Virus record (IMG/VR): IMGVR_UViG_2802429250_000004 | Origin: a virus | Lineage: Duplodnaviria; Heunggongvirae; Uroviricota; Caudoviricetes | DNA: 41,302 nucleotides | Reading direction: 5' to 3' (one strand) | Shown here: positions 28,489 to 28,761 of the stretch, piece after piece | How the letters are laid out: every line of letters begins with the position of its first letter | Position numbering within the stretch: the stretch's first letter is position 1 | Notes under the pieces: model-generated | Database searches by the model: none | What the model saw: only the letters and a program-made list of their open reading frames with translations | Told to the model about the DNA's origin: nothing | Position numbers and translations under genes: made by a program

Positions 28489-28761
28489 ATGACACACATG
28501 ATCTTTCGTCATGGCGACATGAAGAAATGGAAAGGCGTTGGATACGACTTTGAAATCGTGAAAGCCGAAGAGCTTCAGGAATATCTGGATGCTGGCTGGT
28601 TTGCACATCCTGATGATCTTCTGAAGGATGTTGCAGAGCCAGAGCCAGAGCCAGAGCCAGAGCCAGAGCCAGAGCCAGAGCCAGAGCCAGAAGAAAAACA
28701 GCCTAAAAAGCCTGGTCGAAAACCTAAGGCGGCAGCAGATGAACCTGACAACGAAGGGTGA
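28489..28761 (+). CDS. Small protein with an (EP)9 repeat
   Basis: 90 aa from ATG 28489 (GGAGA RBS): [49 protein letters not shown](EP)9[23 protein letters not shown]; overlaps the gp4 start by 23 nt. Confidence 0.5.
28636..28689 (+). repeat. Perfect hexanucleotide tandem repeat (GAGCCA)9
   Basis: Nine uninterrupted GAGCCA units; encodes EP repeats in the small-protein frame and QS repeats in the gp4 upstream frame. Confidence 0.95.

What the first reader, a model, noticed from the sequence alone, without database searches (positions are those of the whole stretch)
28489..28761. Perfect (GAGCCA)9 microsatellite encoding an (EP)9 linker inside the virion gene cluster
Nine uninterrupted hexamer units (28636-28689) lie within a 90-aa ORF between coat and gp4 and also in the upstream frame of gp4, where they would read as QS repeats. 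Perfect tandem repeats of this length are prone to slipped-strand change, and any change stays in frame. Whether this small protein is a real virion or decoration component is unknown.
Basis: seen in the sequence. Interest (0 to 1): 0.45.

Follow-up and report, generated by a model that had tools for sequence, protein, structure and literature searches.

The report
Hypervariable EP-linker repeat in P22 orf69 gene
A perfect nine-unit six-base repeat sits inside a small, genuinely protein-coding but uncharacterised gene (the counterpart of phage P22 orf69) between the coat and head-completion genes, where it encodes a floppy acidic spacer whose length varies from 1 to 29 units among otherwise near-identical E. 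coli prophages.

Summary
(GAGCCA)9 lies at 28636-28689 with no mismatch and cannot be chance. It sits in a 90-aa ORF (28489-28761) that is a real gene: pN/pS is 0.06 in its frame against 1.1-2.2 in shifted frames. The gene is conserved between the coat gene and gp4 in diverged P22-like phages, and it is the orthologue of P22 orf69 (PHROG 1175, function unknown).

The alternative "QS" frame is not coding. gp4 starts at 28739, and relatives have TAG stops in that frame.

The protein has a confidently folded 45-aa N-domain, a disordered acidic (EP)n spacer, a basic AT-hook-like motif (KKPGRKPKA) and an acidic tail. The tail codons also carry gp4's Shine-Dalgarno and start codon.

The repeat is hypermutable. 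It runs from 1 to 29 units in E. coli prophages, and counts differ between loci whose 2.4-kb flanks are identical. Kluyvera, Citrobacter and Buttiauxella also carry pure arrays, and Yersinia has one built from a synonymous unit (GAGCCT). Every change stays in frame.

Function remains unassigned. My best guess, at low confidence, is a late-expressed, non-virion DNA-binding or tethering accessory factor of packaging or head completion. It is ordinary in kind (an in-frame coding microsatellite in a disordered linker) but well documented here.

The parts
28450..28477 (+). Terminator-like hairpin after the coat stop codon (AGAGGGAGC-TTCG-GCTCCCTTT, then a T-run). It is the equivalent of the stem-loop annotated after the coat gene in P22 and of 't coat' in Sf6.
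   Evidence: 9-pair stem, 5 GC pairs, loop of 4, T-run. The P22 and Sf6 records annotate a stem-loop or terminator at the same place. It is conserved in distant loci.
28479..28483 (+). Shine-Dalgarno GGAGA, 5 nt upstream of the small gene's ATG.
   Evidence: Read. A GGAG-type motif lies at the same place in P22 and L093, and AAGGA in Sf6.
28489..28761 (+). Small gene of 90 codons plus stop, the orthologue of P22 orf69 (PHROG 1175).
   Evidence: phrog_1175, E=1.6e-32. BLASTP against P22 orf69, 8e-9; pN/pS 0.063 in frame against 2.18 and 1.09 in shifted frames. Synteny.
28489..28632 (+). Codons 1-48: folded N-terminal mini-domain (beta-hairpin, then alpha-helix) with invariant G36, W37 and P41.
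   Evidence: AF2 pLDDT about 90 for residues 1-40. Alignment A1. hhalign to the repeat modules of GIY-YIG/HNH endonuclease-like proteins: probability 96.5%, E=8e-10.
28636..28689 (+). (GAGCCA)9 microsatellite encoding (EP)9, a disordered acidic spacer.
   Evidence: Disorder: (pLDDT 53-61). Copy-number variation of 1-29 units.
28705..28731 (+). Basic AT-hook-like motif KKPGRKPKA (residues 73-81). Its last codons (AAG GCG) also form gp4's Shine-Dalgarno.
   Evidence: Alignment A1. Relatives have KRRGRPPKA, KRGRPPKAA and KKRGRRPKG. Dual use read.
28726..28729 (+). AAGG Shine-Dalgarno of gp4, inside the small gene and 9 nt before the gp4 ATG.
   Evidence: AAGGCGG is conserved in P22, L093 and Sf6, AAGGCT in L090 and AAAGGCGG in L092.
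28739..29239 (+). gp4 (head-tail adaptor / packaged-DNA stabilisation protein), 166 aa. Its first 23 nt overlap the end of the small gene.
   Evidence: Pfam P22_Tail-4, 8.3e-59, residues 2-160. phrog_637. N-terminus [10 protein letters not shown].
28628..28738 (+). Open stretch upstream of gp4 in the gp4 frame, reading (QS)n. Not a coding region.
   Evidence: TAG stops in this frame in L016, L088 and L089. The ATG at 28628 has no properly spaced Shine-Dalgarno.
27149..28444 (+). Coat protein gene (P22 gp5 type), the upstream neighbour.
   Evidence: Pfam P22_CoatProtein, 2.8e-166.

Best explanation
SHOWN. The tract is an in-frame hexanucleotide microsatellite inside a real late-operon gene, the orthologue of phage P22 orf69. 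The product has four parts: a folded N-terminal mini-domain of about 45 aa, a disordered acidic (EP)n spacer, a short basic AT-hook-like motif (KKPGRKPKA) and an acidic tail. The last codons of the gene also carry the ribosome-binding site and start codon of the next gene, gp4. The number of units changes far faster than the flanking sequence and ranges from 1 to 29 in E. coli prophages. No change ever breaks the frame or touches gp4's translation signals, so this is a length polymorphism of a spacer and not an on/off switch.

INFERRED. The changes arise by replication slippage. Spacer length is only weakly constrained, whereas its acidic, proline-rich character is maintained: it recurs across genera, once with a different synonymous unit.

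INFERRED, LOW CONFIDENCE. The protein is a late-expressed accessory factor that is not an ordered part of the virion. It contacts DNA through the basic hook, and possibly through the N-domain, whose helix motif recurs in tandem in homing-endonuclease-like proteins. It acts around DNA packaging or head completion, and the EP segment serves as a flexible or extended tether between its two ends. It would then be a positional analogue of lambda gpFI, not a homologue.
For: - Repeat.
- Real gene: pN/pS 0.063 in frame against 2.18 and 1.09 in shifted frames, from 33 distinct sequences. The ORF is open in the 88 loci where it was located. A Shine-Dalgarno is present.
- Family: phrog_1175, 1.6e-32. P22 orf69, BLASTP 8e-9. 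34 clusters at 50% identity share the architecture.
- Synteny: members at 37-44% identity lie between the P22 coat gene and gp4. About 137 of the 151 phage records with a gp4 homologue have one of the three slot types.
- Composition: GC is the same as in the neighbouring genes, and there is no promoter-like site.
- Structure: residues 1-45 have pLDDT about 90, and the rest is disordered.
- Hypervariability: match lengths of 353-521 nt in steps of 6 among the 48 listed E. coli records whose match covers at least 91% of the query, out of 219 records with a match. Verified unit counts are 1, 5, 8, 9, 20 and 29. Five of the 11 locus pairs with 2 or fewer differences in 2400 nt of flanks differ in count.
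- Persistence: (GAGCCA)7-8 in Kluyvera, Citrobacter and Buttiauxella, and (GAGCCT)8 in Yersinia.
- Possible DNA link: hhalign to the repeats of GIY-YIG/NUMOD3 proteins, 96.5%, E=8e-10. Canonical RGRP cores occur in relatives.
- Not a modelled virion part: no PDB chain matches.
- Lambda layout E, hairpin, SD, FI, FII.
Against: - Function is not demonstrated by anything here. There are no named homologues, no significant PDB fold match and no literature on orf69, hkbT or Sf6 gene 6.
- The window's motif is PGRKP, not the canonical RGRP. Some relatives have PGPKP with no arginine in the core.
- Part of the conservation of the motif and tail is forced by the overlap with gp4's Shine-Dalgarno and N-terminus.
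- The endonuclease link covers only 18 columns.
- There is no homology to gpFI (hhalign 0.3%).
- The N-terminal cassette can be swapped while coat and gp4 stay 96-98% identical. That argues against a lineage-specific contact of the N-domain with either of them.
- Repeat counts come from assemblies, some from metagenomes, and some prophages may be defective.
- pN/pS was computed pairwise, without correcting for phylogeny.
Confidence: 0.6

Rival explanations
1. Adaptive contingency locus. The spacer length is under diversifying selection, and the microsatellite is kept because rapid length change tunes the protein's reach or charge, or lets it escape a host sensor or defence that recognises it.
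For: The range of lengths is very wide, including pure 20- and 29-unit arrays. Pure arrays persist across genera and were rebuilt with a different synonymous unit in Yersinia. Mutated units (ES, ET, EQ) have themselves been amplified.
Against: The distribution is broad with no preferred classes (n=1-8 are each common), which is what a stepwise mutation process without strong selection gives. P22 and many other members work with a short non-repetitive linker or none. There is no match to any defence-related model. In-frame changes give no on/off switching.
Confidence: 0.12
2. Accessory gene unrelated to morphogenesis: a small DNA-binding protein, made late, that acts on the host or on a competing element (nucleoid, defence system, superinfecting phage). 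It would sit in the head operon only for reasons of expression.
For: The gene has an AT-hook-like motif and an endonuclease-type module. An optional WDGH domain is fused in the same gene, and its stand-alone relatives lie among early and DNA-metabolism genes of large phages next to Lar-like genes. The N-terminal cassette swaps independently of coat and gp4. From my own knowledge, classical P22 genetics found no essential gene between genes 5 and 4.
Against: The slot is occupied almost universally, and strictly between coat and gp4, across very diverged P22-like phages including APSE and Vibrio phages. The gene overlaps gp4 translationally. It has no promoter of its own and no compositional anomaly. 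Morons are normally sporadic.
Confidence: 0.2
3. Virion or decoration component. The EP segment would be an exposed spacer on the capsid or neck.
For: The gene lies in the structural cluster. EP-rich extended spacers do occur in exposed proteins, but the weak matches to TonB and procyclin are compositional only.
Against: No chain in the PDB, P22 and Sf6 virion, portal and tail models included, matches the family profile even at E<=10. More than half of the protein is predicted to be disordered. The gene lies downstream of the coat terminator, so expression is low. From my own knowledge, orf69 is not among the established P22 virion proteins.
Confidence: 0.06
4. The ORF is mainly a translational-coupling leader for gp4, and its peptide has no function of its own.
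For: The gp4 Shine-Dalgarno and ATG lie inside the ORF's last 36 nt in all lineages, and the stop codon overlaps or abuts the gp4 start.
Against: The N-terminal 49 codons, far from gp4, are under strong purifying selection at the amino-acid level (pN/pS 0.063). G, W and P are invariant across members at 35-50% identity. The fold is predicted with confidence. A mere leader would not conserve a fold.
Confidence: 0.04
5. The repeat is translated in the other frame as an N-terminal (QS)n extension of gp4, starting at ATG 28628.
For: An ORF of 203 aa is open from 28628 to the gp4 stop in this window.
Against: TAG stops fall in that frame in L016, L088 and L089. The Pfam gp4 model begins at residue 2 of the 166-aa product. 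Variation in the shifted frames looks non-coding. The AAGGA before ATG 28628 directly abuts the start codon.
Confidence: 0.01

Closest known systems
Phage P22 orf69 (P22gp06, NP_059631), i.e. PHROG 1175; also Sf6 gene 6 and HK620 hkbT as occupants of the same slot
   Same: The genomic slot is the same: coat stop, then hairpin, then SD, then small ORF, then an overlap with the gene 4 start. The architecture is also the same: an N-domain with the ...EL..Y(L/V)..GW..HP motif, a short acidic linker, a basic RKGRKPKA motif and an acidic tail. Homology to orf69 is significant.
   Different: P22 orf69 has a 9-residue non-repetitive linker (PVEADDVKP) and no microsatellite. The window allele has (EP)9 encoded by a pure hexamer array. 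Homology to the Sf6 gp6/hkbT type is not established (hhalign 12%, E=0.0024), although the layout is the same. All of these are annotated as hypothetical.
Phage lambda gpFI (DNA packaging chaperone)
   Same: The position in the head operon matches: major capsid gene E, then a hairpin, then an SD, then FI, then the head-completion gene FII. FI is a small protein with an acidic linker region (that the linker is flexible is from my own knowledge). From my own knowledge of Popovic et al. 2012 (J Biol Chem 287:32085), which could not be read here, gpFI is not a virion component and is dispensable under some conditions.
   Different: There is no sequence or profile similarity (hhalign probability 0.3%). 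From the same recollection, gpFI has a folded C-terminal domain that binds the capsid. Here the C-terminal half is disordered and ends in a basic hook. No activity has been tested.
In-frame coding microsatellites / VNTRs in disordered linkers (e.g. the Pro-rich EP/KP spacer of TonB, EP procyclins)
   Same: This is a perfect short-unit tandem repeat with a unit length divisible by three. Copy number is polymorphic between close relatives. The product is an extended or disordered acidic Pro-rich spacer.
   Different: The resemblance to TonB and procyclin is compositional only, far below the family cut-offs (21.6 against 100 bits; 15 against 315 bits). Unlike classical contingency loci, there is no frameshift-based phase variation.
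AT-hook DNA-binding motif (HMGA type; R-G-R-P core flanked by K/R)
   Same: It is a short basic Gly-Arg-Pro-containing peptide within a disordered region. Several family members have canonical cores: KRRGRPPKA, KRGRPPKAA and RRGRPSVK.
   Different: The window has K-K-P-G-R-K-P-K-A, and some members have P-G-P-K-P without the arginine. No profile match was obtained. The final K-A codons are also constrained by gp4's Shine-Dalgarno.

Membership tests
P22 orf69 / PHROG 1175 family | Significant sequence similarity to family members | tested here: met
   phrog_1175, E=1.6e-32, over residues 1-88. BLASTP against P22 orf69, 8e-9. phmmer finds 34 clusters at 50% identity.
P22 orf69 / PHROG 1175 family | Location between the P22-type coat gene and the gene 4 homologue, with the 3' end overlapping or abutting the gene 4 start | tested here: met
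   In the window the ORF ends at 28761 and gp4 starts at 28739. The arrangement is the same in P22, in L090, L092 and L093 and in E. coli prophages.
P22 orf69 / PHROG 1175 family | Architecture: N-domain with GW..HP, then an acidic linker, then a basic G(R/P)(K/P)P motif, then an acidic tail | tested here: met
   Alignment A1: G36, W37 and P41 are invariant and the basic motif is aligned in all 22 sequences.
Hypermutable coding microsatellite (in-frame VNTR) | Perfect head-to-tail short-unit array well beyond chance | tested here: met
   9 units, 100% matches. None found in 100 shuffles.
Hypermutable coding microsatellite (in-frame VNTR) | Copy number differs among close relatives and changes faster than the flanks | tested here: met
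   n=1-29. Five of the 11 pairs with 2 or fewer differences in 2400 nt of flanks differ in count, and two of those pairs have identical flanks.
Phase-variable contingency locus (on/off by frameshift) | Repeat changes shift the reading frame or alter promoter spacing, so that expression switches | tested here: not met
   The unit is 6 nt. The ORF is intact in the 88 loci where it was located, whatever the count. The repeat lies upstream of gp4's Shine-Dalgarno and ATG and does not alter them.
Lambda gpFI-like packaging chaperone | Sequence or profile homology to gpFI | tested here: not met
   hhalign probability 0.3%.
Lambda gpFI-like packaging chaperone | Gene position between the major capsid gene (followed by a hairpin) and the first head-completion gene | tested here: met
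   for lambda, compared for the window.
Lambda gpFI-like packaging chaperone | Binds the major capsid protein and stimulates DNA packaging | not testable with these tools
   This needs biochemistry or genetics.
AT-hook | R-G-R-P core flanked by basic residues | tested here: inconclusive
   The window has KKPGRKPKA. Canonical RGRP is present in P0134, P0142 and P0145, but PGPKP occurs in other members.
AT-hook | Binds the minor groove of AT-rich DNA | not testable with these tools
   This needs EMSA or NMR.
Virion / decoration protein | Present as a chain in solved virion structures of P22-like phages, or with a fold like known decoration proteins | tested here: not met
   No PDB sequence match at E<=10. 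No significant Foldseek match in the PDB. Disordered parts could escape modelling, so this is not proof of absence.
TonB / procyclin (PARP) EP-repeat proteins | Score above the curated family threshold | tested here: not met
   PARP 21.6 bits against a cut-off of 100. TonB 15.2 bits against 315. The similarity is compositional only.

The most novel reading that the evidence does not exclude
The orf69 family may be a previously unrecognised assembly or packaging accessory factor, near-universal in P22-like phages and functionally comparable to lambda gpFI. It would tether DNA, through the AT-hook-like C-terminus, to the packaging or head-completion machinery or to another generic partner, through the N-domain. 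The EP microsatellite would then be an evolvable molecular ruler that sets the tether length, and its 1-29-unit natural allelic series would reflect selection and not drift.
Probability: 0.12. Interest if true: 0.65.

Novelty: new member of a known kind. Interest (0 to 1): 0.38.

Why it matters
P22 is a textbook model for virus assembly. Even so, a small gene sits inside its morphogenetic operon with no assigned function, and it or a look-alike is present in roughly nine out of ten P22-like phage genomes. This analysis shows four things about that gene:

- It is under strong purifying selection.
- It has a defined three-part architecture.
- In one large E. coli/Enterobacteriaceae lineage, a hypermutable repeat sets the length of its spacer.
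- The repeat also marks a mosaic junction.

The natural series of alleles (1 to 29 EP units, with or without an inserted WDGH domain) is a ready-made set of variants for testing what the protein does and how much linker length matters. On the practical side, the tract is a prophage VNTR that can differ between otherwise identical prophages. It also trips automatic annotation: long alleles are flagged as pseudogenes.

Tried and rejected
1. **QS-extended gp4.** Rejected: stops fall in that frame in relatives, and the Pfam gp4 model starts at residue 2.
2. **Pfam and NCBIfam assignment of the small protein.** Only compositional hits to procyclin, TonB and DnaX, all far below the cut-offs.
3. **Defence-system models (PADLOC).** Nothing.
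4. **PDB by sequence profile and by fold (Foldseek).** Nothing significant. BFVD gave only uncharacterised small phage proteins.
5. **Lambda gpFI homology.** Rejected by hhalign. Only the positional analogy is kept. The Popovic 2012 paper could not be read.
7. **Literature.** Searches for P22 orf69, hkbT, Sf6 gp6, the WDGH domain and the repeat string found nothing relevant. The 'ORF69' in PMC5155283 is a gene of the Stx phage Sp5, not P22 orf69.
8. **Sf6 gp6 homology to the family.** Inconclusive.
9. **The search for related loci with broad alignments.** Failed for lack of a conserved 7-10-residue stretch. A narrower alignment worked.
10. **Moron idea.** Weakened by near-universal slot occupancy, the absence of a promoter and normal GC.
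Full report
**1. The observation**

The window is a P22-like (Lederbergvirus-type) prophage. It runs from an integrase-side end to a tailspike-side end. Its late operon reads:

| Gene | Coordinates |
|---|---|
| portal | 24059-26224 |
| scaffold | 26238-27149 |
| coat | 27149-28444 |
| small ORF | 28489-28761 |
| gp4 | see below |
| gp10 | 29240-30658 |
| needle | 30658-31359 |

At 28636-28689 the hexamer GAGCCA occurs nine times without a mismatch. Tandem Repeats Finder reports 28634-28691, period 6, 9.7 copies, 100% matches, score 116, by far the best array in the window. The 18-mer (GAGCCA)3 matches seven overlapping times there and never in 100 dinucleotide-preserving shuffles. 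In the frame of the 90-aa ORF the tract reads (EP)9, residues 50-67.

**2. Which frame is read**

Two + strand ORFs cover the repeat: the 90-aa ORF, and a 203-aa ORF from ATG 28628 that runs into gp4 and reads (QS)n. The second is not a gene, for four reasons.

- The Pfam P22_Tail-4 model aligns from residue 2 of the 166-aa product that starts at ATG 28739 ([10 protein letters not shown]).
- RefSeq annotates the same 501-nt gp4 in near-identical prophages.
- P22 gp4 starts at the equivalent ATG.
- Relatives whose repeat contains GAGCTA units (E-L in the small ORF) have TAG stops in the gp4-upstream frame: L016, L088 and L089.

The small ORF, in contrast, behaves as a protein-coding gene. Across 33 distinct DNA sequences of its first 49 codons, pN/pS is 0.063 in its own frame, against 2.18 and 1.09 when the same DNA is read in the two shifted frames. 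It has a GGAGA Shine-Dalgarno 5 nt before the ATG. It is open in the 88 related loci where it was located.

**3. What the gene is**

PHROGs places the protein in phrog_1175, function unknown (E=1.6e-32). Pfam and NCBIfam give only compositional hits to procyclin, TonB and DnaX, far below their thresholds.

An exhaustive phmmer search of 1.84 billion cluster representatives, using the one-repeat allele as query, finds only 34 clusters. The small members (66-88 aa, 35-57% identical) all share one architecture:

- an N-terminal module of about 45 aa with invariant G36, W37 and P41 (...V..EEL..YL..GW..HP...);
- an acidic, proline-rich linker of very variable length, often EP repeats;
- a basic motif K(K/R)(P/R)G(R/P)(K/P/R)PKA;
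- a short acidic tail.

Three distant members that I located on contigs all lie between a P22-type coat gene and a P22_Tail-4 gene.

Phage P22 itself has orf69 in this slot: MKIAIYKPGGSIMVWGVMAQMKVIDSSELPEYVKDGWLDHPSKLLPVEADDVKPRKGRKPKAVSDADKD. It is a family member (BLASTP 8e-9), with a short non-repetitive linker. Sf6 gene 6 (= HK620 hkbT) occupies the same slot with the same layout...FFEKLGF...KRGRKA.... Its homology to the family is not established (hhalign 12%, E=0.0024).

In the phage collection, 151 records carry a gp4 homologue. Of the slot types, 8 records have the window type, 101 the orf69 type and 28 the Sf6 type, including APSE and Vibrio phages. The slot is therefore occupied in roughly nine of ten P22-like phages.

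The ORF has the same GC content as its neighbours and no promoter-like site. It follows a terminator-like hairpin placed just after the coat stop codon (28450-28471 plus a T-run). The P22 and Sf6 records annotate the equivalent hairpin. These are the properties of a resident late-operon gene. They do not fit a moron. A 2008 comparative paper stated that P22-like morphogenetic clusters contain no moron other than the 'ant moron' (PMC2629481).

I found no publication on the function of orf69, hkbT or Sf6 gene 6.

**4. Anatomy of the protein**

AlphaFold2, run with the 22-sequence family alignment, gives a confident N-terminal mini-domain. pLDDT is about 90 for residues 1-40. The domain is a beta-hairpin (2-14 and 17-25), a helix (26-34) and a short helix (43-49). 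Everything from the EP repeat to the C-terminus is disordered, with pLDDT 53-61.

The charges are segregated:

| Segment | Net charge |
|---|---|
| N-domain | -4 |
| EP segment | -9 |
| hook segment | +4 |
| tail | -4 |

No solved structure matches, either by sequence profile or by fold. The viral predicted-structure library returns only small uncharacterised phage proteins.

The helix motif V..EEL..YL..GW also occurs as four or five tandem copies in large proteins. Those proteins begin with a GIY-YIG domain, in one case together with NUMOD3, or with a weak HNH-like domain. A profile-profile comparison of the family with those repeats gives 96.5% probability, E=8e-10, over 18 columns. In homing endonucleases, that part of the protein is normally the DNA-binding region (PMC1564403). 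This hints at a nucleic-acid contact but proves nothing.

The basic motif resembles an AT-hook. Several relatives have the canonical RGRP core (KRRGRPPKA, KRGRPPKAA, RRGRPSVK). The window has PGRKP, and some members have PGPKP.

One caveat matters here. The 3' end of the gene has two uses. The codons for ...K-A of the motif (AAG GCG G) are gp4's Shine-Dalgarno, and the acidic tail overlaps gp4's first eight codons by 23 nt. The same AAGG element precedes the gp4 start in P22, Sf6, L090, L092 and L093. Part of the conservation at this end is therefore imposed by gp4.

**5. Behaviour of the repeat**

Against complete E. coli genomes, the 401-nt query matches 219 records. In an evenly spaced sample of the ranking, 48 records have a match that covers at least 91% of the query. 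Their match lengths run from 353 to 521 nt in steps of six. That corresponds to the following counts of dipeptide units:

| Units | Records |
|---|---|
| 1 | 6 |
| 2 | 8 |
| 3 | 4 |
| 4 | 6 |
| 5 | 3 |
| 6 | 6 |
| 7 | 4 |
| 8 | 3 |
| 10 | 1 |
| 12 | 1 |
| 15 | 2 |
| 16 | 1 |
| 17 | 1 |
| 20 | 1 |
| 29 | 1 |

I verified pure arrays on sequence: 1 unit (EC38), 5 (phage Dewey, plus one EQ unit), 8 (phage APC_JM3.2), 20 (CUVET19-970) and 29 (ECONIH6). The 80 IMG/VR loci show 1-7 units.

Units also mutate, and the mutated units are themselves amplified. Examples are GAGTCA (ES), GAGACA (ET), GAGCAA (EQ), GATCCA (DP), GAGCTA (EL) and AAGCCA (KP). L088/L089 carry a 24-nt higher-order repeat.

Among the 11 locus pairs whose 2,400 nt of flanking sequence differ at two positions or fewer, five differ in unit number. 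Two of those pairs have completely identical flanks. The tract therefore changes much faster than point substitution. That is the signature of replication slippage; the mechanism is inferred, the pattern is shown.

The feature is old and persistent. One-genome-per-species representatives of other genera carry pure arrays in orthologues that are 53-80% identical:

| Genome | Array |
|---|---|
| Kluyvera | (GAGCCA)8 |
| Buttiauxella | (GAGCCA)7 |
| a Citrobacter species | (GAGCCA)7 |
| an uncultured Enterobacteriaceae genome | (GAGCCA)7 |
| Yersinia proxima | (GAGCCT)8 |

The Yersinia array is built from a synonymous unit. A 37%-identical member (L092) has (GAGCCA)4.

The EP character of the spacer thus recurs while its length floats. 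Other lineages, P22 included, manage with a short non-repetitive linker or almost none. Because the unit is 6 nt and lies upstream of gp4's signals, no change can switch either gene off. This is length polymorphism, not phase variation.

**6. A mosaic junction**

Some E. coli prophages, and prophages of Pantoea, Cronobacter, Serratia, Xenorhabdus, Hafnia and Klebsiella, carry a longer allele of about 180-200 aa. It consists of a diverged N-module, an inserted WDGH domain (PF25311, E=1.4e-39), an (EP)n or similar linker, and the same basic hook and tail.

Between the window and L007, the coat genes are 98.5% identical in DNA and the gp4 genes 96.2%. Homology breaks just after the coat terminator hairpin and resumes exactly at GCA-GAGCCA, the first repeat unit. 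The N-terminal cassette has therefore been exchanged without any change in coat or gp4, and the microsatellite lies at the right-hand junction.

This argues against a lineage-specific contact between the N-domain and coat or gp4. It is compatible with a generic partner such as DNA.

**7. How it most likely works**

Shown:

- The gene is real, conserved and late-operon resident.
- The product is a folded N-domain, a disordered acidic EP spacer, a basic hook and a tail.
- The gene is translationally entangled with gp4.
- The spacer length is set by a hypermutable in-frame microsatellite.

Inferred:

- The changes arise by slippage.
- Length is weakly constrained. The distribution is broad and has no preferred classes, and the linker is absent or non-repetitive in many functional relatives.
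- The acidic, proline-rich composition is favoured.

Inferred with low confidence: the protein is a non-virion accessory factor that binds DNA through the hook, and perhaps the N-domain, and acts at packaging or head completion. The closest analogy is lambda gpFI. Lambda shows the same layout: capsid gene, hairpin, SD, small protein with an acidic linker, head-completion gene. There is no homology, however, and gpFI's known properties are cited from my own memory of Popovic et al. 2012, which I could not read here.

The main rival for function is a late-expressed DNA-binding accessory protein that acts on the host or on competitors. The main rival for the repeat is adaptive tuning of linker length.

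**8. Novelty and verdict**

In kind this is ordinary: an in-frame coding microsatellite in a disordered linker, within a gene family that databases already list as hypothetical. One GenBank record even annotates the repeat_region.

What appears to be new, as far as the searchable literature shows:

- the scale of the length polymorphism (1-29 units), its persistence across genera, and its rebuilding with a synonymous unit;
- the proof that the small gene is under strong purifying selection and near-universal in its slot;
- its three-part architecture, with an endonuclease-type motif and an AT-hook-like end;
- the dual-use 3' end;
- the mosaic junction at the repeat.

Interest is moderate. This is a tidy, well-supported description and a good experimental handle on an unexplained gene of a model phage, but it is not a surprising new mechanism.

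**Caveats**

- Unit counts come from assemblies, some of them metagenomic.
- Some prophages may be defective.
- pN/pS was computed pairwise, without phylogenetic correction.
- All functional statements beyond the anatomy are inference.

Noticed in passing
   Followed up: partly
window 28474-28636 compared with L007 1575-2095: The window and L007 share 98.5% (coat) and 96.2% (gp4) DNA identity. Homology breaks just after the coat terminator hairpin and resumes exactly at the first repeat unit (GCA GAGCCA). The microsatellite therefore marks the right-hand junction of a swapped N-terminal cassette and may itself serve as a recombination site.
   Followed up: partly
L088 and L089, about 2148-2207 (E. 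coli assemblies GCA_050023035.1 and GCA_050022335.1): A higher-order 24-nt repeat, (GAGTCA GAGCCA GAGCTA GAACCA) x2.5, encodes ESEPELEP... Mutated units have been re-amplified as a block.
   Followed up: yes
L108 (Yersinia proxima IP37424), about 2645-2692: The orthologue carries (GAGCCT)8 instead of (GAGCCA)n. The protein repeat is the same and the unit is a synonymous one, so the array has turned over while EP was kept.
   Followed up: yes
L003 1590-1982 (E. coli ECONIH6) and L006 (E. coli SJC33): RefSeq/PGAP flags the 29-unit allele and a WDGH allele as pseudogenes ('incomplete; missing C-terminus'), although both ORFs are intact when translated. This is probably an annotation artefact caused by the low-complexity repeat.
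   Followed up: partly
window 28705-28761: The 3' end of the small gene has two uses. The K-A codons of the basic motif (AAG GCG G) form gp4's Shine-Dalgarno, and the acidic tail overlaps gp4's first eight codons by 23 nt. The arrangement is conserved in P22, Sf6, L090, L092 and L093.
   Followed up: yes
P0137, P0143, P0151 (metagenomic proteins of 341-428 aa): The helix motif V..EEL..YL..GW of the N-domain occurs as 4-5 tandem copies after GIY-YIG (one also with NUMOD3) or weak HNH-like domains. This looks like an unnamed repeat module of homing-endonuclease-like proteins, with no Pfam model.
   Followed up: partly
NZ_CP026085.1 1466554-1466936 (hit H28): A chromosome labelled E. coli DH5alpha carries this P22-like prophage region with a six-unit repeat. 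That is unexpected for a K-12 laboratory strain and may mean the record is mislabelled.
   Followed up: no
window 9043-9101: A 25-nt unit is repeated 2.3 times (79% matches, consensus ATAACTTAGGTTATAGGCGTGGTAA) in the early region. It may be iterons or operators.
   Followed up: no
P0004 (93 aa, E. coli): This allele has an internal duplication of 13 residues (DAGWFSHPDDLLK) at the end of the N-domain, in addition to four EP units.
   Followed up: no
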